Sequence record: PP993145.1
Source of the DNA: Escherichia phage phiP4
DNA: 64,000 nt
Direction: 5' to 3' (one strand)
The notes under the pieces are model-generated. The model had not been told where the DNA came from. It did not search any database and saw only the letters and a program-made list of their open reading frames with translations. This document shows, one piece after another, positions 1 to 15,165 of this stretch; the first letter of the stretch is position 1, and each line of letters starts with the position of its first letter. Made by a program: the position numbers and the translations under genes.

Positions 1-12
1 ATTTCATCACGA

Positions 13-150
13 TTAAACTGCACAAAAGAACCCCCCAATCCCCACAGAAGAAACTATTCTCTTTTTAACATACTTATATGGTTTCTTTCTGCTATTAAGA
101 AGTGCAGCTCTATTTATCCTGGCTAAACGTTTTGCTTGTTCCGCTAACAT
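13..150 (-). CDS. small hypothetical protein (about 46 aa)
   Basis: ATG preceded by GGAGG-type RBS; sits directly downstream of a TTGCTA-N17-TATAAT promoter (minus strand, 155-200). Below ORF-track size cutoff. Confidence 0.3.
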   Translation of the reverse strand: MLAEQAKRLARINRAALLNSRKKPYKYVKKRIVSSVGIGGFFCAV

Positions 151-212
151 TTAATCCTCCAATCAATTTATATAACTATTATACCAAAATTTTTAGCAAA
201 AAGCAAGTAAAA

Positions 213-245
213 TAAAAGCCTGATCAGCTAAGATCAGGCTTTGTT
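213..245 (-). terminator. rho-independent terminator
   Basis: Perfect hairpin agcctgatc/gatcaggct followed on minus strand by a T-run; lies just downstream of gene 248..538. Confidence 0.6.
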
Positions 246-247
246 TA

Positions 248-538
248 TTAGTCCTCTGGATTATCATCCAGGAAATTTTTAATAGCTTCGTGCATAGTTT
301 CTTTACGAAGCTGACGTCCAATCAGAATATGATTAGCTTCTACTCGACCATTGGGTAAACGATCCGCCAGAACTACTACAGGAACTTGGCGCACACCAAA
401 TTTCTGCATTAATTCTGTATTATCAGTCTCTTTATGGATTTCCAAATTATAGTCACTGACTACTTTATCAAATACTGGCTCAAACATTTTGCAAGGGTTG
501 CAAGTGGAACCTTTCAATAGATATACTAATTTACTCAT
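248..538 (-). CDS. thioredoxin/glutaredoxin-like redoxin
   Basis: 96 aa; CNPC (CxxC) near N-terminus followed by a VPVVV segment as in the thioredoxin fold. Confidence 0.5.
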   Translation of the reverse strand: MSKLVYLLKGSTCNPCKMFEPVFDKVVSDYNLEIHKETDNTELMQKFGVRQVPVVVLADRLPNGRVEANHILIGRQLRKETMHEAIKNFLDDNPED

Positions 539-962
539 AGTTATTAATGGCCTCTAAGAAGTTTTTCATAGTTTTTACGGTTGCGGTGCTTAGATCAAGA
601 TTTACACCCAAACACTCGGTTAATGCTTCCTGATAAGGAGCCTTCAATCTGCCTTCTGGGACTTCTACCTTTTTATACTCTTTATTTTTGACCTTTTTAA
701 TCATAGTCTCTAGTACAAGAAGCGGTAATTTAGCACCTTCAATATCAGTACCCAAAAGTTCAGTTAAAATTTTATTAAGATCAAGACGAGTTAACTTTTT
801 GCCCTTAGACATAGATGCACCTACCTTTGTATCAATAGATTTTTCCGCTTTCTTTTCGAGCTTTTTGTACTCAGGAGAGTCATGATCACGGAGTGCAATG
901 TTTAGCTCGTAATGTGGTATACGAAAATGTTCCGCCATTTGAGTATAGAAACGATCAGACAT
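531..962 (-). CDS. hypothetical protein
   Basis: 143-aa ORF, ATGA overlap with downstream gene, phage-like codon usage. Confidence 0.5.
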   Translation of the reverse strand: MSDRFYTQMAEHFRIPHYELNIALRDHDSPEYKKLEKKAEKSIDTKVGASMSKGKKLTRLDLNKILTELLGTDIEGAKLPLLVLETMIKKVKNKEYKKVEVPEGRLKAPYQEALTECLGVNLDLSTATVKTMKNFLEAINNYE

Positions 963-1037
963 AATATATACCTCTCTTAACTAATTTATGTATATATTAT
1001 ATAATAACTAGGGCTAAAAGTCAACTACTTTTTTATC

Positions 1038-1454
1038 TTAATCTACTACATGTATAAATCTTTTCCTAACTAGATACATAGTTATTGGGTAAATTGAGTA
1101 CATAAGTATCGGGGAGAAAAGGGTGAAATACGCTGTAACTCCCCCAGCTAACATCAAAGGTATTAATGCTAGAGTAAGGGCCATAAGAATCATGCCGAAT
1201 GAAACAGCCAAAGCTATGGATATAGGATTCTCTAGTTCCATCCATAACCAACAATATTTCGTATCTCTATGGCAATTGCATTTACAAACGCCGAATGAAC
1301 CCATAATTATATACTCTAGTCCGTGAATAACCTTTATTAATAAGCTATTTCGGGTAGTTAATGCAAGGATAGTAAAGACTATCATTAAAACGAATACTAC
1401 TAGACTTATTTTCCAGATACCTAGCAGCATCATAGTGAATAGTTCTGCAAACAT
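1038..1454 (-). CDS. small multi-pass membrane protein
   Basis: 138 aa with several hydrophobic helices; adjacent to endolysin. Confidence 0.45.
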   Translation of the reverse strand: MFAELFTMMLLGIWKISLVVFVLMIVFTILALTTRNSLLIKVIHGLEYIIMGSFGVCKCNCHRDTKYCWLWMELENPISIALAVSFGMILMALTLALIPLMLAGGVTAYFTLFSPILMYSIYPITMYLVRKRFIHVVD

Positions 1455-1493
1455 GGCTTTCTCCTATCTTTAAAAATTATTAAAGCCCCCTTT

Positions 1494-1520
1494 GCCTAAA
1501 AAGGCGGGAATATTCCCGCC
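1494..1520 (-). terminator. rho-independent terminator
   Basis: Hairpin ggcggg-aatatt-cccgcc with T-run on minus strand, immediately downstream of endolysin stop. Confidence 0.55.
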
Positions 1521-1531
1521 TCAGTTATTAA

Positions 1532-1945
1532 TTAAACTAGTTCGACATGACCGCCATCATAGGTACCACGTTTTATTTCATCGTGGTAATCTCCCGAAGC
1601 ATTCCAATCAGCACCAAAACGAAGTTTAATGCCTAGTTCTTTACCAGCTTGTTCAAAAGCCTTTTTAACTGCCCAAAATGCTTCTAAATCATTCCAATCA
1701 ATTTTGCCATTAATGTATGGAGCAAAATCAAGGGCATCCCCAGTAATATGCTTGCTTTTACTAGGATCTTTTAAAAATGAAGTACCATTAGCAATATTCT
1801 GGGCACTTTGTGCTACTGTACGAATACCCTGTACGATTGTGAAATCATATGGAGATAATTCTAAAGCTCTACGAGCTACTTTTTGTAGCTCTGGCTTAAC
1901 GGTAGCTAATTGTTTTTCGCTATTTTTACCAAATTTAAAACTCAT
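1532..1945 (-). CDS. lys: endolysin, L-alanyl-D-glutamate peptidase (M15-type)
   Basis: 137 aa; resembles the zinc peptidase-type endolysin of T5 (same length as I recall); overlaps upstream holin-like gene by 4 nt. Confidence 0.8.
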   Translation of the reverse strand: MSFKFGKNSEKQLATVKPELQKVARRALELSPYDFTIVQGIRTVAQSAQNIANGTSFLKDPSKSKHITGDALDFAPYINGKIDWNDLEAFWAVKKAFEQAGKELGIKLRFGADWNASGDYHDEIKRGTYDGGHVELV

Positions 1946-2598
1946 ATTGATCTACCTAAAGATCTCTGTTGTGGGGAACAGAGCTTTGTTAAATACTCGT
2001 TAAATTTCTCAGAATCGGCTGCATCTACAGGATTATCTTTCCAAGCAATACCAATATATCCAGCATAGATATTGTTTAGATTGAAATACGGACAAGTGTA
2101 TATGTAATTAAAAGTAACGTTCTTAAACGCAGGTATATTTAACCCCATATATTTATTTACTTTTACACTTAAATCCGATGCGTAGTTAAAGCCTTCCAAG
2201 TGACGTCTATATAGCTCAGACGTTTTATTTACCGCTTTATCGGCCAAGTCAGCCCTATCTAATTGCGCATTGCTTTCCCATGCAATAATGTTAGAATAAT
2301 CATTAATGGCATCGGGTTTATACTTGACGACAAAAACAGCATCCGCACCCGTTTGAGAAAAGAGTACCATGCTCTTTTCTCTAGCTACATTAGGAAAGTT
2401 ATCTATCCTTTGAGTTTGAACATCCTGTAGAACCGCAGACGTGGAGAAAGTCTTTAAGAATGACATCACCTCGCTAGTATTACTAACAAATAAGAAAATA
2501 ATGACAGCAACTAAGATAGTTAGCAGACGTTTAAGAAGCGATGCTGGATCTTTCGCTTCTTGGAGCAGTACCGTTAATAATTGTAAGAACTTTTCCAA
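1942..2598 (-). CDS. holin-like membrane protein
   Basis: 218 aa with N-terminal hydrophobic segment; translationally coupled to the endolysin. Confidence 0.5.
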   Translation of the reverse strand: MEKFLQLLTVLLQEAKDPASLLKRLLTILVAVIIFLFVSNTSEVMSFLKTFSTSAVLQDVQTQRIDNFPNVAREKSMVLFSQTGADAVFVVKYKPDAINDYSNIIAWESNAQLDRADLADKAVNKTSELYRRHLEGFNYASDLSVKVNKYMGLNIPAFKNVTFNYIYTCPYFNLNNIYAGYIGIAWKDNPVDAADSEKFNEYLTKLCSPQQRSLGRSI

Positions 2599-2711
2599 TT
2601 GTAACCTCCTCTAACCAGTACCATTATACTAATTTTGGAGGAAAATTACAATGTGTTTTTAAAGATCACTTCTGGAGCATAAAATTTTGTCGTTGTCAAG
2701 AAGAATTTTAG

Positions 2712-2745
2712 ATAAAAGAAAAGCCAGGGTCGTTAAACCCTGGCT
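2712..2745 (-). terminator. rho-independent terminator
   Basis: Hairpin agccagggt/accctggct with T-run on minus strand downstream of 2755..3354. Confidence 0.55.
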
Positions 2746-2754
2746 TAAAACTAC

Positions 2755-3354
2755 TTACTCTTCTTTATGCTCCTCTGATTGAGGTAACTGGGCTTTATTA
2801 TATTGCTCAGATCGATATTTTGCCAAGATTTCAATACGCTTATGGATTTCTTTGCTATCTAGATAGATATTTTTGTTGTCTTTTACCATCTCGTCGATTT
2901 CGTCTATTGAGAAGAACGGATAGTAGACATCTAGCATCATATCTTCTACGAACTTGTTGTAAGATTCATAGGCTTTCTTGATTTCTTGACCCTTCTCACA
3001 GAATCCGCCAGAGAACGTGTGTCCCATTAGCGTAGCATGTGGATGTACTACCCACCCATGGCAGGATAAGAAAATTGTGCAGTAAGCAGAAGCACTAGGA
3101 CCAACCAGATGTCCTATAACTGTTCCACGGCAATTAGCAATTAAGTTAGATAACTGTGCAGCAGTATCAACATAACCACCCGGGCCATTAATCATCAGAT
3201 TAATTTCGTCGTCCTCATGTGCCTGCATAAGTACCATTGATAAATCACGGTATTCATCAGGTGGACCTAATTCTTCATCAAAGAAAAAGGTATACTCATT
3301 AGATTGGCGAATGGAGTGAAACAGGTTAGTCTTTTCTTCTTTTTTATTAGTCAT
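2755..3354 (-). CDS. ClpP-like serine protease (S14 family)
   Basis: 199 aa; INGPGG, GPSAS and HPHA..H segments resemble ClpP catalytic core. Confidence 0.55.
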   Translation of the reverse strand: MTNKKEEKTNLFHSIRQSNEYTFFFDEELGPPDEYRDLSMVLMQAHEDDEINLMINGPGGYVDTAAQLSNLIANCRGTVIGHLVGPSASAYCTIFLSCHGWVVHPHATLMGHTFSGGFCEKGQEIKKAYESYNKFVEDMMLDVYYPFFSIDEIDEMVKDNKNIYLDSKEIHKRIEILAKYRSEQYNKAQLPQSEEHKEE

Positions 3355-3366
3355 AGCGATCCTTGA

Positions 3367-4119
3367 TTATCCAACTAGTGGTTCTAGCTCTAAGTCACAG
3401 AAGTTATAAACTTCTAGTTTAAGGTTATTGATACCATCGAATTTATTAACTAATTCGTGAGTAATATATTTTGCAGGAATACCACTTTCAGATGGATGAT
3501 CTGATTTAATAGTGAACTTCTGCTCAGCGGGCACTACATTTACTATCAAAGAATCCATATCTAAATGGTTTGTTTCTCTGAGTAACTCTCCTTCATTGGG
3601 GAATCTAACATCTGTTATTACGGCGACATCTGGGTCGTCTTTAGCGATGGATTGCTCCAGAATTATGAGCCAAATGCGTTCATGCACCAGCTGCCTTCCT
3701 AGCTCTGTCCCTACGAGCTGTAACATTTTTCTCGGAGAAATAAATAAACTATAAAGTCCGTCTTCTTTATTCTCTGAGATAAGTTGTTGAGGATTAAGGT
3801 ATTTTTCCTCAAAAATAGGCCAAACGTACGAGAAGTCTTCAAACTTATCGATACCGTACTTAAACCATACATCTCTGGCTCGCTCCAATTGAGATTGTGT
3901 GACCGTAAACCATTGGTCAATCTCTTTTCCTCTGCGCTCTCCTAGAAACTCTGGAGTTACACCGAGGATTACGGATGCAAGTTCATAAACTGGCTTAGCA
4001 AAACTATAACGACGAGAAAAACACGTTGGATACGTGTCATTACACCAATCGATAATTAATTTTGCAACGGTATCTTTTCCCGAACCAGCTTCACCATGTA
4101 AACCGACTAATACTGACAT
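3367..4119 (-). CDS. dnk: deoxynucleoside monophosphate kinase
   Basis: 250 aa; N-terminal P-loop GEAGSGKDT as in T4 gp1 / T5 dNMP kinase. Confidence 0.65.
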   Translation of the reverse strand: MSVLVGLHGEAGSGKDTVAKLIIDWCNDTYPTCFSRRYSFAKPVYELASVILGVTPEFLGERRGKEIDQWFTVTQSQLERARDVWFKYGIDKFEDFSYVWPIFEEKYLNPQQLISENKEDGLYSLFISPRKMLQLVGTELGRQLVHERIWLIILEQSIAKDDPDVAVITDVRFPNEGELLRETNHLDMDSLIVNVVPAEQKFTIKSDHPSESGIPAKYITHELVNKFDGINNLKLEVYNFCDLELEPLVG

Positions 4120-4472
4120 TAATCTTTCCTATTGTTAATTGGTGGATAATATACTAAACAACGTTTTTCTTGCAAATCTTGACGATAGAAGCAAACCATA
4201 CTTGTCAGTCGTGAAATATATGAATATTCTGCCTCACGGCATTTTGCCAACATATTCCAATCTTTATATGGTACAACAACTACTACGCCATCTTCTCCAT
4301 TTGTAGCTAATTTCTTTTCAAACTTAAAGTCAAAGCTACAAGGTTGAAGTCCTTTAGGCCAATCTACATGAGCTGTTGGTAACTCATGTGAGGGTTCTGA
4401 CTCTATTTCTTGTGCACAGCCTGTGATTGTGATTGCGGCTGCGAGCAGTATTCCAAGTTTCCAGTTAAACAT
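4119..4472 (-). CDS. lipoprotein (candidate outer-membrane spanin)
   Basis: Signal peptide with lipobox ITGC; overlaps the upstream membrane coiled-coil gene. Confidence 0.4.
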   Translation of the reverse strand: MFNWKLGILLAAAITITGCAQEIESEPSHELPTAHVDWPKGLQPCSFDFKFEKKLATNGEDGVVVVVPYKDWNMLAKCREAEYSYISRLTSMVCFYRQDLQEKRCLVYYPPINNRKD

Positions 4473-4852
4473 GCTAATCTTTCCTCGAACTCTTTACTCT
4501 GCTTTTTAGCAATTAATGTTACCAATCCAGGCTTTGCAGCTATAATGTCTTGACGACTAAGTGCTTTATCAAGCTGACTAATTTTCTTATCTAAGTCTGC
4601 TTGAGAAATATTATTCATCGTGAAATACTGATTCATTCTAGTCTCACGAAGTTCACTTTCAGCTTTCACCTTATTAAGGGAAGTCTCTAGAGAAGAAATC
4701 TTTTTAGTAGCTACTGCAAGATCTCCCGCTAAAGTCTCCACTTTATCTACTAAGTGATAAGCACCGAATCCGATGCCTATCGCTAGACCTGCTCCCAGGA
4801 TATACCACTTACCGTGCCATATTCCTGAAAGAAGTTTTTGTATCAAATCCAT
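4403..4852 (-). CDS. membrane-anchored coiled-coil protein (candidate inner-membrane spanin)
   Basis: N-terminal TM helix then heptad-like coiled coil; 3' end overlaps lipoprotein gene. Confidence 0.4.
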   Translation of the reverse strand: MDLIQKLLSGIWHGKWYILGAGLAIGIGFGAYHLVDKVETLAGDLAVATKKISSLETSLNKVKAESELRETRMNQYFTMNNISQADLDKKISQLDKALSRQDIIAAKPGLVTLIAKKQSKEFEERLACLTGNLEYCSQPQSQSQAVHKK

Positions 4853-5507
4853 GCGCTGCTAACCTGTCTTTATCTGATACTTTAATCATATCAGGCTCAC
4901 CAGTTCCTAGTACACCGAAGATATACTGTTCGAGAACTTGGTGTAAACGGTATAAGTTACTTTCAATTTCCTGCCACGGAATACCTGACTGATGGAAACG
5001 AATGTTAGTCTGAATTACGAAGTTACGAACATCATCGTTATCGTTCTTTTTAATACCTTTCACATATGCAATCGGTACGCGCAGTTCGGATAAGATACGT
5101 TCTGCTTTAGGTTTTGCTTCAGCTAGCAGATCACGCATTGTTTCACGAACATCTCCACGACTCTTATCCATTAAGTAAGAGCGAGCATGCAATCCCATCT
5201 CTTCCATTTTATCGAACATAGTGTCGAGATTAAACGTTTTGAAGCTAAATGCTGGATGCCAGCAGTACAGCTCGTGTAACCAGTAAACTTCACCTGCAAC
5301 AAACAGTGGATTTACGAAGTATTCGAAATCACCACGGAAAGATAGTGAACCATCACGAAATACCTGGCGAGTATGCACAATGTTCTTTTCTGCATCATCG
5401 GTTACTTTAACCAGCAACTCCTCAGTTTTACGTTCCCACACACGATCTGGGTCGAACAAACTGTTCTGCAAATCATACACATCGGCGAACTTAGAAATAA
5501 TCCTCAT
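4809..5507 (-). CDS. hypothetical protein
   Basis: 232-aa ORF, no recognised motif. Confidence 0.5.
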   Translation of the reverse strand: MRIISKFADVYDLQNSLFDPDRVWERKTEELLVKVTDDAEKNIVHTRQVFRDGSLSFRGDFEYFVNPLFVAGEVYWLHELYCWHPAFSFKTFNLDTMFDKMEEMGLHARSYLMDKSRGDVRETMRDLLAEAKPKAERILSELRVPIAYVKGIKKNDNDDVRNFVIQTNIRFHQSGIPWQEIESNLYRLHQVLEQYIFGVLGTGEPDMIKVSDKDRLAAHGFDTKTSFRNMAR

Positions 5508-5580
5508 ATTTAATCCTCTTGCCTCAATCTATAAACATATTATACAAAAGTTTGGGCATCTAAGCAACTAAAATTTTATT

Positions 5581-5617
5581 ATAAAAATAGCCCAGTCGCA
5601 AAAGTGCAGGCTGGGCT
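5581..5617 (-). terminator. rho-independent terminator
   Basis: Hairpin agcccag...ctgggct with T-run on minus strand after gene 5662..6042. Confidence 0.55.
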
Positions 5618-5661
5618 TTGTCATTATTTGCTTTTGCTAGTAAGTTGATTTAGTATCAATC

Positions 5662-6042
5662 TTATGTAATATTAGTTTCTCTAGCTTTGCGTAGTACCCC
5701 TGCGTTTCTCCACAATTTGATGTCAGCAACTGTTTCTTTATATGGAGCAATGGTAGAACCAATTGGGCCAGCAACTAATAACCCAAAGAACCCTACAATA
5801 CGCATGTAGAACAAGCATTCTTTGGCTGTCATATTATTTACTGCTTTTTTCTGCTTTTCATCTTTAAACTTCTGTTCTTGATCATCAATACGTAGATACT
5901 TAATAAACCATTCAGCAGAATATTCGTCCAAATGTCTAATAATAGCTATCGCATATACAGCACCGATTAAAAACCAAGTTGTAACAAGAATTAGTAATAT
6001 AGTCATATTATCTCCAGTTATGGCTAGCAGCCACCTCACCAC
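5662..6042 (-). CDS. membrane protein
   Basis: 126 aa with two hydrophobic helices. Confidence 0.45.
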   Translation of the reverse strand: MVRWLLAITGDNMTILLILVTTWFLIGAVYAIAIIRHLDEYSAEWFIKYLRIDDQEQKFKDEKQKKAVNNMTAKECLFYMRIVGFFGLLVAGPIGSTIAPYKETVADIKLWRNAGVLRKARETNIT

Positions 6043-6116
6043 TTACCGCACTAAGGGGCACGACTCCCTTATCCGTAACAGTTGCAGGTGACGCAACTCG
6101 GTCCTACGCGAGTTCT

Positions 6117-6401
6117 TTAAGTATTCTGCATTTCAGCTTTAAATTTTTTCATATTACGAGTTTTTCTATAAAAGAAAAACACAGATGTTGGGCCTAGAAG
6201 AATATCTACAATAAATATCATAGATCTAGCACATCTGAGTAATGTTTTATCATCAAGAGGTGGCAGATCTAACGGTCGAGTTTTATGTATAACGTATAAT
6301 ATTACATCTTTATTCTTAGAAATATACAGATCATCAACCAAGCTGTAAATAGCAACCACAGATCCAATGACGAACCAAAGAGCAAATGGAGAGATAATCA
6401 T
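6117..6401 (-). CDS. small membrane protein
   Basis: 94-aa ORF, hydrophobic N-terminus. Confidence 0.4.
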   Translation of the reverse strand: MIISPFALWFVIGSVVAIYSLVDDLYISKNKDVILYVIHKTRPLDLPPLDDKTLLRCARSMIFIVDILLGPTSVFFFYRKTRNMKKFKAEMQNT

Positions 6402-6694
6402 TTCAGATCCTTTTCATTAATTAGAATATTAGTAAACAGTGGAGTAAATCCTAGACTCATAGTGGGTCCAAAGGTTTTCATAGCTACCCATAACTGCAGG
6501 GTAATCATCCCATCTTTAATCTCTGGATCTTTATATTCACCAATACGTTTTTTGGCAAAGGCAACTACATCTGGGTTATTTTTATTTTCCTGAATATAGT
6601 CATGCCAAAACTGAGTATTCTCACTACGTAGGAATGTTAAAACATCCTTAGTTGCTGGGATCTGCACTGTGCTGTTGATGTTTAGTCTTTTCAC
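6398..6694 (-). CDS. hypothetical protein
   Basis: 98-aa ORF in tightly packed minus-strand array. Confidence 0.4.
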   Translation of the reverse strand: MKRLNINSTVQIPATKDVLTFLRSENTQFWHDYIQENKNNPDVVAFAKKRIGEYKDPEIKDGMITLQLWVAMKTFGPTMSLGFTPLFTNILINEKDLK

Positions 6695-7091
6695 GTTCTT
6701 CTCTCCGACGTTTACTTTCTTTCATCATATGAGCTGCTACAACTTCATGGTAGTAGTCATTAATGTTACCTTCTGGCAAGAAATGCTTAATAGTCTCTAA
6801 CTGACAAATAACTCGATGAAGATGGTTATTTGGTAGACACAATTTTATACCTGCAACAAATCCTGAGAAGCCTGGAATACTGAACATGGGTTTGGCTTCT
6901 ACTCTACCTTCAGAGTTGATGTTAAGCTCAATTGAAATACCCATTTTCATGCTATAAAGCTGGCAATATTCTCCATTACCAGACCTTGACCAAACAGTGA
7001 AGTCCTCATCAATTTGATCTTGGATTTCTGTAATTGCAAATTTAATTCTAGGGTCTAAATTATTCATCTTCACCTTCAAAGTCGCAATCAT
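6648..7091 (-). CDS. hypothetical protein
   Basis: 147-aa ORF. Confidence 0.4.
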   Translation of the reverse strand: MIATLKVKMNNLDPRIKFAITEIQDQIDEDFTVWSRSGNGEYCQLYSMKMGISIELNINSEGRVEAKPMFSIPGFSGFVAGIKLCLPNNHLHRVICQLETIKHFLPEGNINDYYHEVVAAHMMKESKRRREEREKTKHQQHSADPSN

Positions 7092-7365
7092 AACGACAAG
7101 TAAAAGAATCAGAACTATTAGTACGTTGAGTGGTTATTTCACCGCGTTTGCTAATAGTAACGGCTGGAGTAGAGAAGTTTTTATTAGTATATATTTCTAC
7201 TTTACCATTACGTTCCTTAACATCACGAACTTTACCATACTCGGTAATAATGCCGTTCTGTTGGACTTTAACATTACCATTTTTCATAGAAACTTTGGTA
7301 GACGCCAGAGAACCGAAACTAACTGCGGAGATCATCAGTGCAATAATAAACTTATTCATCTTCAT
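7060..7365 (-). CDS. secreted small protein
   Basis: Signal-peptide-like start MKMNKFIIALMISAVSFGSLAS; upstream part of the listed ORF is probably not translated. Confidence 0.4.
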   Translation of the reverse strand: MKMNKFIIALMISAVSFGSLASTKVSMKNGNVKVQQNGIITEYGKVRDVKERNGKVEIYTNKNFSTPAVTISKRGEITTQRTNSSDSFTCRYDCDFEGEDE

Positions 7366-7633
7366 CCTCCCCACTACAATCACGACATACATCATAATCG
7401 TTGAAAGAACGTTCGTGGGCTTCACACCACCAAGAACAAGAATCACAGAGAAACATTTCGGTTTTCTCCAGTGCTTGACCTAAAAGATCATCAGCTTCCT
7501 CAGCAGTAATCTTCAATCCGCACACATCTGCCACACGTTCTTTAATTAAACGACCTGCTTCGTGGTAAGACATACAGGTTCCCGCAACATCATGTTCAAG
7601 AACATGAACAGCACAGTCTAGACGAGTTTTCAT
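7352..7633 (-). CDS. Cys-rich small protein (putative Zn-binding)
   Basis: 93 aa with CDSCSWWC and CRDC pairs. Confidence 0.4.
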   Translation of the reverse strand: MKTRLDCAVHVLEHDVAGTCMSYHEAGRLIKERVADVCGLKITAEEADDLLGQALEKTEMFLCDSCSWWCEAHERSFNDYDVCRDCSGEDEDE

Positions 7634-9208: not shown

Positions 9209-9284
9209 TGGTAGTTAGTAGTGGATTTGAACCACTGTAATCGCTCCGTATGAAGGAGGTGCATAACCGCTCTGCCAACTAACT
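9209..9284 (-). tRNA. tRNA, anticodon CAU (Met-type; could be elongator Met or Ile-lysidine)
   Basis: Hand-folded cloverleaf: 7-bp acceptor, T-arm AGTGG-TTCAAAT-CCACT, anticodon loop TTCATAC, encoded CCA. Confidence 0.55.
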
Positions 9285-9380
9285 ATTATGTTTTACTAGA
9301 CTAAGTAAGTATTCTTTATACTCTTTAGTCCAATTAGCTTTTTTAAACTTTCCTGGACGCATAGTCTTAATTCCTAAATT

Positions 9381-9457
9381 TGGTACTCCGGGAGGGATTT
9401 AAACCCCCGATCTCTCGGTTATCAGCCGAGTGCTTTAGATCGCTAAGCTACCGAAGT
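9381..9457 (-). tRNA. tRNA-Ile (GAU)
   Basis: Acceptor ACTTCGG/CCGGAGT, anticodon arm CTCGG-CTGATAA-CCGAG, encoded CCA. Confidence 0.65.
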
Positions 9458-9458
9458 A

Positions 9459-9686
9459 TTAACATTTTACAGCAGAACGTTTGCCATTTCTAGGCGCACC
9501 TGGAAGTCGTGCACGTTCTGCCATTATTCGCTTAATCTTTGAGATATTTTCTAGTGTTTGTTTTTCAGGCTTAATACCTGAAACACTACACCACTGACTA
9601 CCATCCCATGCGGTAATGATCATAACACCATTACTCATGATCTTTTCTGTGAAAGTAATCCTCATTATAGCAACTCGTCTAAGCAA
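9459..9686 (-). CDS. hypothetical protein
   Basis: 75-aa ORF between tRNAs. Confidence 0.35.
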   Translation of the reverse strand: MLRRVAIMRITFTEKIMSNGVMIITAWDGSQWCSVSGIKPEKQTLENISKIKRIMAERARLPGAPRNGKRSAVKC

Positions 9687-9958
9687 GAGGTATATTTAAG
9701 TTTACCATCTTTATCTACTTTGATTTCGACTTCCGCTCGTGGTACTTGACGAACTACACCATGAATCATCTTATAGCGAATGCCTTTAGCTGGTTCATGC
9801 TCTTTTGGAAATACTTGCTTAACCGTTACTACCTTGAAACCCTCACGCGGTGTTAACACTACTACTTGATCACCTTTTTTGATCTTCCAAGAGCTAGGAA
9901 ATTCATAGGTATAGCGTTGACCACCAGTTTGGAACACAACAGAAAGATAACGTTTCAT
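9665..9958 (-). CDS. hypothetical protein
   Basis: 97-aa ORF. Confidence 0.4.
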   Translation of the reverse strand: MKRYLSVVFQTGGQRYTYEFPSSWKIKKGDQVVVLTPREGFKVVTVKQVFPKEHEPAKGIRYKMIHGVVRQVPRAEVEIKVDKDGKLKYTSCLDELL

Positions 9959-10025
9959 TTGGTTTCCCTCTCATTAATTTATATAAATATTATAACAAGA
10001 AATAAGAGAGAAAGCAAATGAATTT

Positions 10026-10193
10026 TTAATAGAGTTTAGTCACTTCATAAACTATACTACGAGATTCTTTATTACGTTCTATTAAATTAGCGTATGCTTT
10101 TTCAGCTTCGTTTTTAGTATTAAAGTCTATAACGTGGGAGGTATTAGCTCTGTTTGATTGACTATACCAGATAACTACTAGGAGTTTAAACAT
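10026..10193 (-). CDS. hypothetical small protein
   Basis: ORF trimmed to second Met to avoid overlap with the tRNA at 10208. Confidence 0.3.
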   Translation of the reverse strand: MFKLLVVIWYSQSNRANTSHVIDFNTKNEAEKAYANLIERNKESRSIVYEVTKLY

Positions 10194-10207
10194 ACTAGTC
10201 CTTAAAT

Positions 10208-10294
10208 TGGTGCTGGGCACAGGATTCGAACCTGCAGTGGGATTACTCCTCCTGATTACAAATCAGGTGCATTCAACCATTCTGCCAACCCAGC
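10208..10294 (-). tRNA. tRNA, anticodon UGU (Thr-type) with unusually long variable region
   Basis: Acceptor GCTGGGT/GCCCAGC, T-arm GCAGG-TTCGAAT-CCTGT, anticodon arm CCTGA-TTTGTAA-TCAGG; 87 nt. Confidence 0.5.
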
Positions 10295-10459
10295 AGAACC
10301 CGTTATTTCAACGGGATTTCTTTTTCAATAACAGGAGACTTATCAGTCATAACTGTCATTGCCATTTGTTGTAGAAATTCAAAGGTGAAGGCTACACGTT
10401 CTTCACCAATCTCTACTTCTACACGTTTCTTTTGTTTATCGATCTTGACTTTTAGGTTA

Positions 10460-10681
10460 TCAGCCATCTTCGGGTTCTCGTTGCTGTGCTACTTCTAGCC
10501 AGTCTGGTAGAAGAAACTTTGTACGAAATTCTTCGTAAGTTTCTTTGGGATAAAAGCTAAAACCTCCTTTCTCATCATTCAGGATAACAGAGCCGTCCGT
10601 TTGTTCGTATGCTCGGTATGTTTCTCCAATAACAATAACTCGTTTATCGGTACTTTTATTACGAAACTCAAAAACGTGCAT
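10460..10681 (-). CDS. hypothetical protein
   Basis: 73-aa ORF. Confidence 0.35.
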   Translation of the reverse strand: MHVFEFRNKSTDKRVIVIGETYRAYEQTDGSVILNDEKGGFSFYPKETYEEFRTKFLLPDWLEVAQQREPEDG

Positions 10682-10697
10682 AACGTTTCCTTAAAGT

Positions 10698-10773
10698 TGG
10701 AGCGGCTAGAGGGAATCGAACCCTACTCAGCGAGGCTTGGAAGGCCTGCGACACAACCCGTGTGCTTAACCGC
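10698..10773 (-). tRNA. tRNA-Gly (UCC)
   Basis: Acceptor GCGGTTA/TAGCCGC, T-loop TTCGATT, anticodon loop CTTCCAA. Confidence 0.5.
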
Positions 10774-10781
10774 TTATTATT

Positions 10782-10857
10782 TGGCTGGAGAAGGAGGAAT
10801 CGAACCTACCATTAACGGAGTCAAAGGCCGTTGTGCTAACCGTTACACTACTCTCCA
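10782..10857 (-). tRNA. tRNA-Gln (UUG)
   Basis: U1-A72 acceptor TGGAGAG/TTCTCCA with G discriminator as in bacterial tRNA-Gln; anticodon loop CTTTGAC. Confidence 0.55.
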
Positions 10858-10863
10858 ATTGTT

Positions 10864-10939
10864 TGGCTGGGATGCCACGGATCGAACGTGGAACCTTCGG
10901 AGTCAGAGGCCGACGATCTGCCAATTGATCTACATCCCA
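10864..10939 (-). tRNA. tRNA-Gln (CUG)
   Basis: Acceptor TGGGATG/CATCCCA, discriminator G, D-arm GATC-AATTGGCA-GATC, anticodon loop CTCTGAC. Confidence 0.55.
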
Positions 10940-10948
10940 AGAATGCTA

Positions 10949-11185
10949 TTAGCTAGATGCTGTTTCTACTGGCTGAGAAACAGCAGGCTGTTCTAACGTA
11001 TCTGGTGCTGATACAGAGAAAAGAGCTTGTAATGCTGCAATATCACGCTCGTAAGTATCAATACGAGTAGTAAGAGTATCTACCATCTGTTTATGGTAGG
11101 ATAAGTTATTCTGAGATTCATCTCGAAGAGTTTGCAGTTCTGCAAGACGTGTTAACATAATTTCACTAATTAAAGCATTACTCAT
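10949..11185 (-). CDS. hypothetical coiled-coil protein
   Basis: 78-aa ORF. Confidence 0.35.
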   Translation of the reverse strand: MSNALISEIMLTRLAELQTLRDESQNNLSYHKQMVDTLTTRIDTYERDIAALQALFSVSAPDTLEQPAVSQPVETASS

Positions 11186-11375
11186 TTGTTTCTCCTAAGT
11201 TTTCCTGTTCTTCTAAACGTTTGCCTTCATGATCTACTCGAATAACTCCGCATCCTTCGCAAATCACAACTGCACCATAACCTTCTTTGACCTCAGCTTC
11301 TGTAATCAAACCAGAAAGATCACCAGTATCTCTGCCCCACATATCAATGGAGCATTGTTTGCAGAAATCAGCCAT
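11178..11375 (-). CDS. small Zn-ribbon-like protein
   Basis: 65 aa with CKQC ... CEGC cysteine pairs. Confidence 0.35.
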   Translation of the reverse strand: MADFCKQCSIDMWGRDTGDLSGLITEAEVKEGYGAVVICEGCGVIRVDHEGKRLEEQENLGETNE

Positions 11376-11400
11376 ATTTTATTTCCTATTTAAGTTAATT

Positions 11401-11477
11401 TGGGGTGGCTAGTGGAATTCGAATCCACATAGGCCTGATTCACAATCAGGATCATTAACCAATTATGATATAGCCAC
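11401..11477 (-). tRNA. tRNA-His (GUG)
   Basis: Acceptor GTGGCTA/TAGCCAC, discriminator C, anticodon arm CCTGA-TTGTGAA-TCAGG, T-arm GTGGA-TTCGAAT-TCCAC. Confidence 0.65.
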
Positions 11478-11704
11478 AATTGAAAACTCGCAGGGTTAGC
11501 GAAACCTTCCTCAATTAGCATGTTCTAGAATACTAATCAAGTTATCTCCTATTGCACGCAGCTCAAGACGAGTACGAATTTTCAATTGTGGCGGCTCTCA
11601 GAAACTCTTCTACTCTAGCTTTAGCAGCTTACTCCCGAACGCATGTCGGGGAAGTCTTACCAAGAGCATCAAATAGCACCGTTACACTTTGAGCCATAGA
11701 TGTA

Positions 11705-11800
11705 TCAAGAAGCAGAAGGATTTGAACCTTCACGAGATAGACCAGTTATCTCAGCCGCTTTATGAGGTATGTTGCAGGGAGTGGATGTTCCCTATAAACC
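11705..11800 (-). ncRNA. tRNA-like element, not foldable as a canonical tRNA
   Basis: Perfect T-arm GAAGG-TTCAAAT-CCTTC at 11716-11732 but no complementary 5' acceptor strand found within 100 nt; bounds are a guess. Confidence 0.25.
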
Positions 11801-12040
11801 TTTTAGGCAGCCCCGTCTACCGATTCCGGCATACTTCAAGAATTTTTTATAAACCAGCAGAAGCCTCATTTAAAGCATCAACAATAGCTTCACGTTGGGT
11901 CATTCCATACCCGGTGGAATCTAGGTGTGGCAAATAAGCCATCCATCCCTTATCTGTTTCATGAAGACATGCTTTAAATTTTTTACCATCCTTCATTGTT
12001 ACAGTAACTGTTTTGCTCATAAGATTTCCTTATAGTTAAT

Positions 12041-12130
12041 TGGCAGAAGATAATGGAGTCGAACCATCACCGTATCGCTACAGCGGGCTGGTTTTCAAGA
12101 CCAGTTACGTACCACTACGTCCTATCTTCT
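12041..12130 (-). tRNA. tRNA-Ser (UGA), type II
   Basis: Acceptor AGAAGAT/ATCTTCT, anticodon arm CTGGT-CTTGAAA-ACCAG (as in E. coli tRNA-Ser UGA), long variable arm, 90 nt. Confidence 0.65.
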
Positions 12131-12143
12131 AGTATTTATTATA

Positions 12144-12491
12144 CTAATAGTCACTCGTACTAGTGAAGTTTTCTACTTTTCCACAGATTTTACAAGTCCT
12201 ACGATGATAGTAGGTAATTTTTACTTTAGACCAGCCATCGTGATCATTACCTAGGTTTTCTGTTACTCCCCAAGTATGAGAACACTCATTTTCAATTTGC
12301 TTAGTAAGAGCGTTATAGCGAGTATAAAACTCCTCCTGAGCAATAGCAAATTCTTTCTGTAGTTTATCACGAGCAATAATAGCACGTTCCAGATATGTTA
12401 AATCAGGCATTCCAGCTTTTTCAGCAACATCTATAATCTTATCTTCATCTAAAGATGCTAAAAACTCTAGAGCTTTATCTTTTGTTAGCAT
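12144..12491 (-). CDS. hypothetical protein with C-terminal Zn-ribbon-like motif
   Basis: 115 aa; CSHTWG ... CKICGK. Confidence 0.4.
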   Translation of the reverse strand: MLTKDKALEFLASLDEDKIIDVAEKAGMPDLTYLERAIIARDKLQKEFAIAQEEFYTRYNALTKQIENECSHTWGVTENLGNDHDGWSKVKITYYHRRTCKICGKVENFTSTSDY

Positions 12492-12510
12492 TATTATTAC
12501 CTCAAGTGTT

Positions 12511-12601
12511 TGGCGGAAGAGGAGAGATTTGAACTCTCAAGCCGTTTTACCAGTCAGCCACTTTCCAAGCGGTTTTCGTCACCAATTCGATTTGCTCTTC
12601 C
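12511..12601 (-). tRNA. tRNA-Ser (GGA), type II
   Basis: Acceptor GGAAGAG/CTCTTCC, anticodon region CCGC-TTGGAAA-GTGG resembling E. coli tRNA-Ser GGA, long variable arm, 91 nt. Confidence 0.55.
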
Positions 12602-12611
12602 AATAATAAGA

Positions 12612-12706
12612 TGATGCCTCTATCACACCAGGCAGTTACGCCTCGCTGGGATTCGAACCCATTAAAACAGCTCAACCGAGATAGTAGGTTTAATTTACTC
12701 TGACCA
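12612..12706 (-). ncRNA. tRNA-like element / degenerate tRNA
   Basis: T-arm-like TGGG-TTCGAAT-CCCA at 12646-12662 without an adjacent acceptor stem; distal ends (12612-12618 and 12700-12706) are partly complementary. Confidence 0.25.
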
Positions 12707-12713
12707 TCAAATT

Positions 12714-12790
12714 TGGTGCGTGACAAGGGATTCGAACCCTCAAAACCCGACTTCTAAGGACGGTATGTATGCCAATTCCATCAATCACGC
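12714..12790 (-). tRNA. tRNA, anticodon UAG (Leu-type anticodon, short variable arm)
   Basis: Acceptor GCGTGAT/GTCACGC, T-arm GAGGG-TTCGAAT-CCCTT, anticodon loop CTTAGAA; anticodon stem has one mismatch. Confidence 0.45.
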
Positions 12791-12795
12791 ATATT

Positions 12796-12874
12796 TGGTG
12801 GAGAATAACGGAATCGAACCGTTCTGATGTCCTCGGTGCAAGCGAGGTGTCCACTCCATGCAGACCCATTCCCC
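12796..12874 (-). tRNA. tRNA-Ala (UGC)
   Basis: Acceptor GGGGAAT/ATTCTCC with G3-U70 pair, anticodon arm CCTCG-CTTGCAC-CGAGG. Confidence 0.65.
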
Positions 12875-12887
12875 AAATTCTTTAGTT

Positions 12888-13072
12888 TACTAAGGCTATT
12901 AGCTCGGCGTAACTACAGCACCTTCGCTTCGAGCGGAAGGAACTGCGTCATCTCGCAAACCCAATACACTATTCAGTTGCCGCTGAATCTAGTGGACCAA
13001 TCTAGAACTTCTCCCGAATCAGGGGGATCGTGCTTTTTGGCAGCCAGTCCTAGGTCGAGCTAATACCTTAGT
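12888..13072 (-). ncRNA. structured ORF-free element closed by terminal inverted repeat (candidate small RNA)
   Basis: About 16-nt inverted repeat taaggctattagctcg (12890-12906) / cgagctaatacctta (13055-13070) enclosing a GC-rich stretch with internal hairpins; strand not determined. Confidence 0.3.
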
Positions 13073-13159
13073 GAACTATGATGAGGATTTCTCCTCATCA
13101 ATTTATATAAATATTATAACAAGAAATTAAGCATCAAGCAACTGCGTTTTTTCTTGAAA

Positions 13160-13239
13160 TTGGTAGATCGCCTGGGACTCGAACCCAGAACCTTCCGATT
13201 AAAAGTCGGATGCTACTAAACCTATTGAGCTAGCGATCT
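13160..13239 (-). tRNA. tRNA-Lys (UUU)
   Basis: Acceptor AGATCGC/GCGATCT, anticodon arm TCCGA-CTTTTAA-TCGGA, T-arm CTGGG-TTCGAGT-CCCAG. Confidence 0.7.
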
Positions 13240-13428
13240 ATTAGTAACCATTATACACTTCTTTAATAGAGTGGACTTTTAAGTAAGGGTGATTAGTACT
13301 AAACTCTACCATTACTTCATCCCAATTTTTACCATAATGAGCAAGTAAGGATTTTGATGTATTCTTACCTAATCGTTTATCACTTACTACTAATCGAAAT
13401 ACTTTCATTTCGAAATCCTCTATTAAAA

Positions 13429-13506
13429 TGGAAGCGGGTGCAGGAATCGAACCTACCTCTTTCTAGCTTATGAGACTAGCGATCTCTACCAGAGATCTAA
13501 CCCGCG
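13429..13506 (-). tRNA. tRNA-fMet-like (CAU), initiator-type
   Basis: Anticodon loop CTCATAA; 5' end CGCGGGT with unpaired position 1-72 (C1/U72), the hallmark of bacterial initiator tRNA. Confidence 0.55.
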
Positions 13507-13512
13507 ATTATT

Positions 13513-13588
13513 TGGTCAGTGCGGCAGGACTCGAACCTGCGACCCGAAGCATCCAAGGCTCCCACGCTACCAACTGCGCTACGCACTG
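13513..13588 (-). tRNA. tRNA-Pro (UGG)
   Basis: Acceptor CAGTGCG/CGCACTG, D-arm GCGC-AGTTGGTA-GCGT, anticodon loop CTTGGAT. Confidence 0.65.
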
Positions 13589-13797
13589 TTAATTTTTGTT
13601 AACTCACTTTATAAGATATATTATACAGAGAATTAAGCAGAATAGCAAATGAATTTTTAATAAATTTACTTATTGTGTAGGCCACCTAGAGGCTATGAAC
13701 CCCACGGCTGACAAAGAAGTTTGCGAGACTTCTCTTAAATGCCAGAATAGACCCGCCGATCTATCGGAACCTACATAATAAGTAAACTTTATAGTGT

Positions 13798-13918
13798 CAT
13801 TCTAGACAGGACTCGAACCTGTTATCACTTGTGCGGACTTACGAGAACCATTCTTTCACTCGAATCGAACGAGCTTCTGCCCTCGCCAAGCTGGTTTCCC
13901 CATCAACCACGCTAGAAT
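13798..13918 (-). ncRNA. unusual tRNA-like RNA of about 120 nt (tRNA with large insertion or novel tRNA-like ncRNA)
   Basis: Perfect 7-bp acceptor pairing between 13799-13805 and 13912-13918, perfect T-arm ACAGG-TTCGAGT-CCTGT, D-arm-like TGGT-loop-ACCA, but about 45 extra nt between D-arm and T-arm including a second T-arm-like hairpin. Confidence 0.4.
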
Positions 13919-14040
13919 GTTTGATTGTTTTCAGTGCAAGAGTCCGAGTCTTGGACACGACCGCTTCGCAAGTACATAGGCAGCTTATCATGAGTCAGCA
14001 CTTCCGAATTGCTAGCTCCGTGTTCTGCACTGAAATTTTA

Positions 14041-14388: not shown

Positions 14389-14413
14389 AATATATTCTCA
14401 TACTGAATTAATT

Positions 14414-14490: not shown

Positions 14491-14499
14491 ATGATCTGT

Positions 14500-15098: not shown

Positions 15099-15165
15099 AT
15101 TTATTATCTTTCATAACGTGCAGCTACATGGTCGGAACCACAACACTTAAATCTAACTAATCGTT

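What the first reader, a model, noticed from the sequence alone, without database searches (positions are those of the whole stretch)
1038..4852. Lysis cassette with candidate spanin pair displaced from holin-endolysin by ClpP-like protease and dNMP kinase
The holin-like gene and M15-type endolysin are adjacent, but the only spanin-like pair (overlapping TM coiled-coil gene 4403-4852 and lipoprotein gene 4119-4472) lies about 2.2 kb away, separated by a ClpP-like protease and dNMP kinase. The spanin call is inferred from topology only.
Basis: partly seen in the sequence, partly recalled or inferred. Interest (0 to 1): 0.4.

Follow-up and report, generated by a model that had tools for sequence, protein, structure and literature searches.

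The report
Phage T5-type lysis genes, already known
This stretch is the standard lysis-gene region of a phage T5 relative.

Summary
The window comes from a T5-like phage (99% nucleotide identity to Salmonella phages SE11/SE8). Bases 1038-5507, all on the minus strand, match T5 genes T5.039-T5.047 one for one, except that T5's hegF endonuclease gene is absent.

The spanin call is correct:
- 4403-4852 is the i-spanin (T5.045 homologue, phrog_739).
- 4119-4472 is the o-spanin (T5.044 homologue, phrog_812), with lipobox ITG|C19 and Ala at +2.
- They overlap by 70 bp, as published for T5.
- They fall in the same families as T4 PseT.3/PseT.2, the tested spanins, and keep PseT.2's two essential cysteines.

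The Clp-like protease, the dNMP kinase and the M15 endolysin (99.3% identical to T5 Lys) are also confirmed.

The holin call is wrong. The holin is the 218-aa, TTG-initiated ORF at 1942-2598 (Pfam Phage_holin_T, E = 8e-114). It lies upstream of the endolysin and overlaps it by 4 bp. The ORF at 1038-1454 is a four-TM protein of unknown function that lies beyond a terminator.

The true gap between spanins and holin is 1.5 kb and contains a terminator and a promoter-like site, so there are probably two operons. The gene order holds across four Demerecviridae genomes examined. Verdict: already known, low interest.

The parts
4809..5507 (-). orf232, homologue of T5.047. Hypothetical protein and first gene of the upstream transcription unit. 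A promoter-like site lies at 5601-5573.
   Evidence: 94.8% aa identity to T5.047. phrog_4243, unknown function. T5 annotates a promoter directly upstream of T5.047. Window promoter-like site TTGCGA-17-TAAAAT.
4403..4852 (-). i-spanin: inner-membrane spanin subunit, 149 aa. N-terminal TMD at about residues 17-35, helical periplasmic domain, Cys128 and Cys136.
   Evidence: phrog_739 'Rz-like spanin', E = 2e-37, the same PHROG as T4 PseT.3. 89.1% identity to T5.045. BLASTP against T4 PseT.3, E = 6e-6. Best hydropathy window at residues 17-35. AlphaFold helices 2-79, 84-101, 108-116 and 120-129.
4119..4472 (-). o-spanin: outer-membrane lipoprotein spanin subunit, 117 aa. Signal peptide with lipobox ITG|C19 and Ala at +2. 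Periplasmic Cys45, 78, 94 and 105. Overlaps the i-spanin gene by 70 bp in another frame.
   Evidence: phrog_812 'Rz-like spanin', E = 6.3e-30, the same PHROG as T4 PseT.2. 97.4% identity to T5.044. BLASTP against T4 PseT.2, E = 1e-7, with the motif CFYRQDLQEKRC aligned to T4's C..11..C pair. Fits PS51257. Lipobox Cys conserved in all six homologues aligned.
3367..4119 (-). dnk, deoxynucleoside monophosphate kinase. Its ATG overlaps the o-spanin stop codon by one base. Not a lysis gene.
   Evidence: Pfam DNMK, 44.7 bits against a 27.1 cut-off. 99.2% identity to T5 Dnk (T5.043).
2755..3354 (-). ClpP-like serine protease homologue (T5.042). Function in the phage unknown. Last gene of the upstream unit.
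   Evidence: Pfam CLP_protease, 32.6 bits against a 20.2 cut-off. phrog_1827. PDB ClpP 3q7h, E = 5e-5, with Ser89 and His112 aligned to the catalytic Ser and His. Below all NCBIfam cut-offs.
2721..2746 (-). Intrinsic terminator: 11-bp stem followed by a T-run. Ends the spanin-dnk-clp unit.
   Evidence: Same position as the terminators annotated in T5 and Lindwurm.
2623..2651 (-). Sigma-70-like promoter (TTGTAA-17-TATAAT) in front of the holin gene.
   Evidence: T5 annotates a promoter at the equivalent place. This is a consensus match only.
1942..2598 (-). The real holin: T4 T-type, 218 aa, TTG start behind a GAGGAGG ribosome-binding site. One TMD at about residues 25-43, a large periplasmic domain, Cys169 and Cys207.
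   Evidence: Pfam Phage_holin_T, E = 8.1e-114. phrog_860 holin. PDB T4 holin periplasmic domain 6pxe, E = 3e-16. 95.9% identity to T5.041, which also starts at TTG; the start is ATG in the Klebsiella phage and Eos homologues.
1532..1945 (-). Endolysin: soluble M15 L-alanyl-D-glutamate peptidase (T5 Lys). Its start overlaps the holin stop by 4 bp.
   Evidence: PDB 2mxz/8p3a, E = 1.3e-90. 99.3% identity to T5.040. phrog_465 endolysin. No hydrophobic segment in its sequence.
1498..1520 (-). Intrinsic terminator (GGCGGGAATATTCCCGCC followed by TTTTT) after the endolysin gene.
   Evidence: Read directly from the sequence. Terminators are annotated at the same place in T5 and Lindwurm. The consensus scan did not list it.
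1038..1454 (-). Four-TM membrane protein of unknown function (T5.039 homologue). Not identifiable as a holin.
   Evidence: No Pfam or NCBIfam hit. phrog_5944, unknown function. 98.6% identity to T5.039, annotated 'contains four transmembrane domains'. Homologues sit at the same position in Erwinia phage KEY, a Klebsiella phage and Eos.

Best explanation
This is the lysis apparatus of a T5-like siphophage (Demerecviridae), encoded in two neighbouring minus-strand transcription units.

Unit 1 runs from a promoter-like site at about 5601-5573 to the terminator at 2746-2721. It encodes orf232, the i-spanin, the o-spanin, the dNMP kinase and a Clp-like protease.

Unit 2 runs from a promoter-like site at about 2651-2623 to the terminator at 1520-1498. 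It encodes a T4 T-type holin and a soluble M15 L-Ala-D-Glu endolysin.

Inferred mechanism, from the T4 and lambda paradigms:
1. The holin accumulates in the inner membrane and at a set time forms large holes.
2. The cytoplasmic endolysin escapes through these holes and cuts the peptidoglycan.
3. This frees the pre-assembled spanin complex, which consists of the type-II inner-membrane i-spanin and the outer-membrane lipoprotein o-spanin, joined C-terminus to C-terminus across the periplasm and stabilised by disulfides.
4. The spanin complex fuses inner and outer membranes and completes lysis.

The dNMP kinase and Clp-like genes are passengers in the spanin operon, not lysis genes.

Shown here: gene identities, homologies, signals and conserved order. 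Inferred: operon boundaries, timing and the membrane-fusion step.
For: - Source: 99.0% nucleotide identity over 4.7 kb to phages SE11/SE8; 426 phage records cover at least 80% of the region.
- Gene-for-gene match to T5.039-T5.047 at 89-99% aa identity.
- RefSeq T5 annotates T5.044 and T5.045 as 'Rz-like spanin'.
- PHROG spanin families, E = 6e-30 and 2e-37. T4 PseT.2 and PseT.3 fall in the same two PHROGs.
- Direct BLASTP against T4 PseT.2 and PseT.3 gives E = 1e-7 and 6e-6.
- Window Cys94 and Cys105 align with the two cysteines of PseT.2, which PMC6139136 shows are essential. The same paper shows that PseT.3/PseT.2 complement lambda RzamRz1am.
- PMC6139136 lists T5 i- and o-spanin families (including SPC35, EPS7, Stitch) with overlapped architecture and states that the T5 spanins overlap by 70 bp, the same value as here.
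- Lipobox ITG|C19 with Ala at +2, conserved in six homologues down to a T4-like phage.
- Holin: PF11031, E = 8e-114; PDB T4 holin, E = 3e-16.
- Endolysin: PDB 2mxz, E = 1e-90.
- Terminator and promoter-like sites between the units, matching the T5 and Lindwurm annotations.
- Order i-spanin, o-spanin, dnk, clp, holin, endolysin, four-TM gene is conserved in Erwinia phage KEY, Klebsiella phage rec21 and Eos, at only 38-45% o-spanin identity.
Against: - I found no experiment on the T5-family spanins themselves. Their function rests on homology to T4 (about 28% identity) and on signals. PMC6139136 says essentially all earlier experimental work was on lambda Rz/Rz1, and adds its own T4 tests.
- Pfam and NCBIfam have no model that hits either spanin.
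- The i-spanin TMD is Gly-rich and scores only 1.55 on a 19-residue Kyte-Doolittle window.
- A coiled coil was not formally predicted. The single-sequence AlphaFold model has mean pLDDT 65.5.
- Operon boundaries rest on consensus matches and other people's annotations, not on transcript data.
Confidence: 0.93

Rival explanations
1. The four-TM ORF at 1038-1454 is the holin, or a second holin, pinholin or antiholin. In that case the lysis cassette would be holin-like gene plus endolysin, with the T-family protein as an accessory.
For: - It is small (138 aa) and has several TMDs and a short basic C-terminus (RKRF...).
- It lies directly downstream of the endolysin, with only about 45 nt between the terminator and its ATG. 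No promoter-like site was found in that gap, so it may be expressed by read-through.
- Its position after the endolysin is conserved in distant Demerecviridae at 29-49% identity.
Against: - It matches no holin family: Pfam 0 hits, NCBIfam 0 hits, PHROG of unknown function.
- A terminator separates it from the endolysin.
- A bona fide T-type holin (E = 8e-114) is translationally coupled to the endolysin on the other side.
- Small multi-TM proteins are common in this early region (one search lists several).
Confidence: 0.06
2. The pair 4119-4852 is not a spanin but another envelope system, for example a lipoprotein for superinfection exclusion or receptor blocking (like T5 Llp) together with a membrane partner.
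For: - The function of the T5-family pair has not been tested directly.
- The genes sit in an early operon with nucleotide-metabolism genes rather than with the holin and endolysin.
- T5 is known to make an early lipoprotein, Llp, that blocks FhuA (cited in PMC4342426).
Against: - Both proteins are homologous to T4 PseT.3/PseT.2, which complement lambda spanin mutants.
- The essential Cys pair is conserved.
- The TMD-protein plus lipoprotein pair with overlapped genes is the defining spanin architecture.
- No other spanin candidate exists in the window.
Confidence: 0.03
3. The intervening Clp-like protease is functionally part of lysis control, for instance by degrading a holin inhibitor or processing a spanin. 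That would explain why it stays between the spanins and the holin.
For: - Its position between the o-spanin/dnk genes and the holin is conserved in every Demerecviridae genome examined.
- Ser89 and His112 align with the ClpP catalytic residues.
Against: - Nothing links it to lysis.
- A terminator separates it from the holin.
- It has no signal peptide or TMD, so it would be cytoplasmic.
- Conserved order is the rule along the whole T5 early region.
- The third triad position is Asn in the window and in T5.
Confidence: 0.03

Closest known systems
Phage T5 T5.045/T5.044 spanins (the 'T5 family' of i- and o-spanins in Kongari et al. 2018, PMC6139136), together with T5 hol (T5.041) and lys (T5.040)
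   Same: - Same genes in the same order on the same strand, with the same 70-bp spanin overlap.
- Identity to T5: 97.4% (o-spanin), 89.1% (i-spanin), 95.9% (holin), 99.3% (endolysin).
- The SPC35 o-spanin is 99.1% identical.
   Different: - The window lacks T5's hegF HNH endonuclease gene upstream of the i-spanin.
- As a result the first 14 or so residues of the i-spanin differ, and its gene overlaps orf232 by 44 bp.
[quoted passage not shown]
   Same: - Same PHROG families, 739 and 812.
- About 28% identity.
- Conserved C-x11-C pair in the o-spanin, essential in T4.
- Conserved 'AKPGLV' motif in the i-spanin.
- As in T4, the spanin genes are not next to the holin and endolysin genes (legend of Fig. 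8 in PMC6139136).
   Different: - The T4 genes have the separated architecture and lie next to pseT and alc.
[quoted passage not shown]
- The window o-spanin has two extra periplasmic cysteines (C45, C78).
- Here the spanins are only 1.5 kb from the holin.
Phage lambda Rz/Rz1
   Same: Same functional class and topology: a type-II inner-membrane protein plus an outer-membrane lipoprotein, with the o-spanin gene in a different frame overlapping the i-spanin gene.
   Different: - No detectable sequence similarity.
- Lambda's Rz1 is fully embedded in Rz and sits in a single SRRzRz1 cassette.
- Here the architecture is overlapped, and the pair lies in a separate unit from the holin and endolysin.
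Phage T4 holin T (class III holin; PDB 6psk, 6px4, 6pxe)
   Same: - Full-length Pfam PF11031 match.
- One TMD and a large periplasmic C-terminal domain with two cysteines.
   Different: - Here the holin is translationally coupled to the endolysin, whereas in T4 t and e are unlinked.
- I did not search the window for homologues of the T4 RI/RIII antiholin system.

Membership tests
Two-component spanin: o-spanin subunit | N-terminal type II (lipoprotein) signal peptide with a lipobox and an invariant Cys | tested here: met
   MFNWK-LGILLAAAIT-ITG|C19 fits [LVI][ASTVI][GAS]C and PROSITE PS51257. It is the only credible such ORF among 313 in the window. The Cys is conserved in T5, KEY, the Klebsiella phage, Eos and T4-like Ursula. 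No SignalP or LipoP was available.
Two-component spanin: o-spanin subunit | Outer-membrane sorting: no Lol-avoidance Asp at position +2 | tested here: met
   The +2 residue is Ala20. Homologues have Ala or Ser.
Two-component spanin: i-spanin subunit | Single N-terminal TMD giving an N-in/C-out type II inner-membrane protein | tested here: met
   There is one hydrophobic segment, YILGAGLAIGIGFGAYHLV (17-35, Kyte-Doolittle 1.55), preceded by K6 and K15. The rest is hydrophilic. This is a simple hydropathy measure only; no dedicated TM predictor was available.
Two-component spanin: i-spanin subunit | Periplasmic domain made mostly of alpha-helices with coiled-coil propensity | tested here: inconclusive
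   The single-sequence AlphaFold model is almost all helix (2-79, 84-101, 108-116, 120-129) but has mean pLDDT 65.5. No coiled-coil predictor was run.
Two-component spanin: gene architecture | i-spanin gene immediately followed by the o-spanin gene, either embedded, overlapped or separated | tested here: met
   Overlapped architecture: the o-spanin starts 70 bp before the i-spanin stop, in another frame, and extends beyond it. This is identical to the published T5 arrangement.
Two-component spanin: homology to tested members | Sequence relationship to spanins with experimentally shown function | tested here: met
   Same PHROGs as T4 PseT.2 and PseT.3. BLASTP E = 1e-7 and 6e-6. T4 genes shown to complement lambda RzamRz1am (PMC6139136).
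Two-component spanin: disulfides | Periplasmic cysteines able to form homotypic intermolecular disulfides | tested here: met
   The o-spanin has C45, C78, C94 and C105; C94 and C105 align with the essential T4 PseT.2 pair. The i-spanin has C128 and C136. Actual bond formation was not testable.
Two-component spanin: function | Required for outer-membrane disruption; complements spanin-defective lambda | not testable with these tools
   Needs a wet-lab complementation or knockout experiment.
T-type (class III) holin, Pfam PF11031 | Full-length match to the family, one TMD, large periplasmic C-terminal domain | tested here: met
   ORF 1942-2598: 379 bits against a 22.2 cut-off, covering profile positions 2-233 of 233. 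One hydrophobic segment. PDB T4 holin periplasmic domain, E = 3e-16.
Holin of any class, as a label for ORF 1038-1454 | Match to a holin family, or co-transcription and coupling with the endolysin | tested here: not met
   No Pfam or NCBIfam hit, and a PHROG of unknown function. A terminator lies between it and the endolysin.
M15 L-alanyl-D-glutamate peptidase (EndoT5) | Sequence identity to the solved and characterised T5 enzyme | tested here: met
   PDB 2mxz/8p3a, E = 1.3e-90 over residues 1-137. 99.3% identity to T5.040. The Pfam Peptidase_M15_4 hit alone is just below threshold (23.2 bits against 25).
ClpP / peptidase S14 (PF00574) | Profile match above the gathering score and a Ser-His-Asp triad | tested here: inconclusive
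   Pfam 32.6 bits against a 20.2 cut-off. Ser89 and His112 align with the catalytic residues of ClpP 3q7h. The Asp position is Asn162 here and in T5, but Asp in KEY, the Klebsiella phage and Eos. All NCBIfam ClpP and head-protease models score far below their cut-offs. It is a ClpP-fold relative, not a ClpP equivalog.

The most novel reading that the evidence does not exclude
The conserved four-TM protein at 1038-1454 (T5.039 family, with a CxCxC...C loop) may be an unrecognised lysis-timing component of Demerecviridae. It always sits just past the endolysin terminator and has no detectable promoter of its own, so it is probably made by read-through of the holin-endolysin transcript. It could be, for example, an antiholin or membrane partner of the T-type holin in phages where no RI/RIII-type antiholin system has been described (I did not search for RI/RIII homologues).
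Probability: 0.06. Interest if true: 0.4.

Novelty: already known. Interest (0 to 1): 0.07.

Why it matters
It matters little. The region re-identifies the T5 lysis genes, which are already in RefSeq annotation and in the published spanin census. Three points have practical value:
- The holin call is corrected. A TTG-start gene was missed and a nearby multi-TM ORF was mistaken for it.
- Many deposited T5-like genomes still label these spanins 'hypothetical protein', or mislabel the o-spanin as 'i-spanin' or 'putative terminase'.
- The T5-family spanins, the early Clp-like protein and the four-TM protein after the endolysin appear not to have been tested experimentally.

Tried and rejected
- Pfam and NCBIfam scans gave nothing for either spanin or for ORF 1038-1454.
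- The i-spanin gave weak hits to FtsL (20.8 bits against a 50 cut-off), MctB and CNOT1. All are far below threshold and are explained by a TMD followed by a long helix, so I rejected them.
- The consensus terminator scan missed the terminator after the endolysin. I found it by reading the sequence.
- My first guess at the T4 pseT coordinates was wrong; the second worked.
- Summer et al. 2007 (J Mol Biol 373:1098), the original Rz/Rz1-equivalents survey, is not held in the library. A search for the T5 locus tags found no paper. My recollection that T5 is listed there is therefore from memory only.
- I did not run the large protein-database searches, locus scans or fold searches. The identification was already unambiguous from the annotated phage collection.
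- I considered whether the pair could be a chance TM/lipobox coincidence. I rejected this because of its conservation in more than 540 phage records and the rarity of lipobox ORFs in the window.

Full report
**What is there**

ORF listing of bases 1-7500 shows a run of minus-strand genes. A megablast of 900-5600 against 50,697 phage records finds 454 records. Of these, 426 cover at least 80% of the query. The best are Salmonella phages SE11/SE8 (99.0% identity) and Escherichia phage Lindwurm (98.8%, genus Tequintavirus). The reference T5 record (NC_005859) has the same genes in the same order, T5.039 to T5.047. Amino-acid identities to T5 are 98.6% (T5.039), 99.3% (lys), 95.9% (hol), 98.0% (T5.042), 99.2% (dnk), 97.4% (T5.044), 89.1% (T5.045) and 94.8% (T5.047). 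The rest of the window fits the T5 early region: 22 tRNA genes lie on the minus strand at 9209-21296, followed by many long ORFs.

**Checking the observation**

- The two ORFs called a spanin pair exist at exactly the stated coordinates and overlap by 70 bp.
- The 117-aa product begins MFNWKLGILLAAAITITG|C19-AQE. This fits the classical lipobox and PROSITE rule PS51257.
- Across all start codons of the 313 ORFs of at least 40 aa in the window, only one other ORF fits that rule. It is a 40-aa ORF on the strand opposite to the neighbouring long ORFs (40114-40236) and is probably spurious.
- The residue after the lipid-modified Cys is Ala, not the Asp that would retain a lipoprotein in the inner membrane (established Lol-sorting rule).
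- The 149-aa product has one hydrophobic stretch (17-35) after a short basic N-terminus. In a single-sequence AlphaFold model it is otherwise almost entirely helical, with mean pLDDT 65.5, so this is indicative only.
- The Clp-like call (Pfam CLP_protease 32.6 bits, cut-off 20.2), the dNMP kinase call (Pfam DNMK 44.7 bits) and the M15 endolysin call all hold.
- The endolysin matches the solved T5 L-alanyl-D-glutamate peptidase 2mxz with E = 1.3e-90.

The interval starts at 1038, the start of a 138-aa multi-TM ORF (1038-1454).

That overlooked ORF is the holin:
- It gives a full-length Pfam Phage_holin_T match, E = 8.1e-114.
- It falls in phrog_860, annotated holin.
- Its periplasmic domain matches the crystal structures of the T4 holin, E = 3e-16.
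- It has one TMD.
- Its stop overlaps the endolysin start by 4 bp.
- T5's hol gene has the same TTG start. The Klebsiella phage and Eos homologues have ATG at the aligned position, and a GAGGAGG ribosome-binding site precedes the TTG.

By contrast, 1038-1454 has no Pfam or NCBIfam hit and belongs to a PHROG of unknown function. A hairpin terminator, GGCGGGAATATTCCCGCC followed by T5 at 1498-1520, separates it from the endolysin. Terminators are annotated at that place in T5 and Lindwurm.

**What the pair is**

- Both proteins match PHROG families annotated 'Rz-like spanin': phrog_812, E = 6.3e-30, and phrog_739, E = 2e-37.
- I fetched T4 pseT.2 and pseT.3. They fall into the same two PHROGs.
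- They align directly with the window proteins, E = 1e-7 and 6e-6, at about 28% identity.
- The motif C94-FYRQDLQEKR-C105 aligns with the T4 PseT.2 motif C-YYRQELKEDK-C.
- Kongari et al. 2018 (PMC6139136) showed that pseT.3/pseT.2 complement lambda RzamRz1am and that both PseT.2 cysteines are essential.
- The same paper defines T5 families of i-spanins and o-spanins (T5, EPS7, Stitch, SPC35, AKFV33, FFH1, DT57C and others). It classes them as overlapped and states that 'the T5 spanins overlap by 70 bp', the same as here.
- The SPC35 o-spanin is 99.1% identical to the window's.
- The lipobox Cys, the C-terminal Cys pair, and the i-spanin motifs 'AAKPGLV' and 'CLTGN..C' are conserved in Erwinia phage KEY, Klebsiella phage rec21 and phage Eos, at 38-45% o-spanin identity.

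**Is the 'displacement' unusual?**

No. The order i-spanin, o-spanin, dnk, Clp-like, terminator, holin, endolysin, terminator, four-TM gene is the annotated organisation of T5 and of close relatives. The gene order is kept in the distant Demerecviridae KEY, rec21 and Eos.

In the window a strong terminator (11-bp stem, 2746-2721) follows the Clp-like gene, and a promoter-like site (2651-2623) precedes the holin. Another promoter-like site (5601-5573) precedes orf232, where T5 annotates a promoter. The most economical reading is two adjacent operons: one carrying the spanins together with nucleotide-metabolism and Clp-like genes, the other carrying holin and endolysin.

Scattered lysis genes are already the textbook situation in T4, whose spanins lie near pseT, far from t and e (for Ursula and T4). 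[quoted passage not shown]

**Mechanism**

Inferred from the T4 and lambda paradigms:
1. The T-type holin triggers and forms large holes in the inner membrane.
2. The soluble M15 endolysin, which has no hydrophobic segment, reaches and degrades the murein.
3. This frees the spanin complex, which spans the periplasm, to fuse inner and outer membranes.

Gene identity, targeting signals and conservation are shown here. Timing, operon structure and membrane fusion are inferred. I found no direct experiment on T5-family spanins.

**Rivals**

1. The four-TM ORF might be a holin or antiholin. Its conserved position just past the terminator, with only about 45 nt to its ATG and no promoter-like site found there, allows expression by read-through. 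Nothing else supports this, and a canonical holin is present. I give it about 6%.
2. The pair might be a non-spanin envelope system. The T4 homology and the architecture argue against this.
3. The Clp-like protein might take part in lysis control. Only conserved synteny supports this.

**Verdict**

The spanin interpretation is right and now rests on homology, not only topology. The whole arrangement is already annotated and published. Novelty: already known. Interest: low (0.07).

Noticed in passing
window 1038-1454 (-): A four-TM protein (T5.039 family) with a GVCKCNCHRDTKYC loop keeps its place directly after the endolysin terminator in Erwinia phage KEY, Klebsiella phage rec21 and Eos (29-49% identity; BLASTP E = 2e-15 to 4e-41). 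Only about 45 nt separate the terminator from its ATG and no promoter-like site was found there, so it may depend on read-through from the holin-endolysin unit. Function unknown.
   Followed up: partly
window 2755-3354 (-): This early Clp-like protein scores below every NCBIfam ClpP and head-maturation-protease cut-off. Ser89 and His112 align with the ClpP catalytic residues. The third triad position is Asn162 in the window and in T5, but Asp in the KEY, Klebsiella phage and Eos homologues. Its role in the phage is unknown.
   Followed up: partly
window ~4806-4819; L003 (T5) 5205-5750: T5's hegF HNH homing-endonuclease gene (about 540 bp) is absent from the window. The junction falls at the orf232 stop and the i-spanin 5' end. 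This explains why the first 14 or so residues of the i-spanin differ from T5, and why the gene overlaps orf232 by 44 bp here. DNA upstream of the junction is more diverged (75-80% identity) than DNA downstream (92.5%).
   Followed up: partly
L006 (MN478377, phage Eos) 4324-6980; hits H33, H39, H42, H49, H53: Several public annotations are wrong. In Eos the product names look shifted by one gene: dnk is called protease, the Clp-like gene holin, and the holin endolysin. Several T5-like records label the o-spanin 'i-spanin' or 'putative terminase', many call both spanins 'hypothetical protein', and Lindwurm does not annotate the o-spanin at all.
   Followed up: no
L005 (PQ569721, Klebsiella phage rec21) 4175-4330: The annotated o-spanin CDS is truncated to 51 aa. 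The same frame is open upstream to an ATG that yields MRNWKYGLLLSAAIIASGC..., a full lipoprotein signal overlapping the i-spanin gene.
   Followed up: partly
window 9209-21296 (-): There are 22 tRNA genes in a cluster, as in the T5 tRNA region. I did not compare this set with T5's gene by gene.
   Followed up: no
window 5662-6042, 6117-6401, 7060-7446 (-): Upstream of the spanin operon lie several small ORFs with hydrophobic stretches in their sequences, and one with a signal-peptide-like N-terminus (MKMNKFIIALMISAVSFGSLAS). The T5 counterparts T5.048 and T5.049 are annotated only as having two TM domains. Functions unknown.
   Followed up: no
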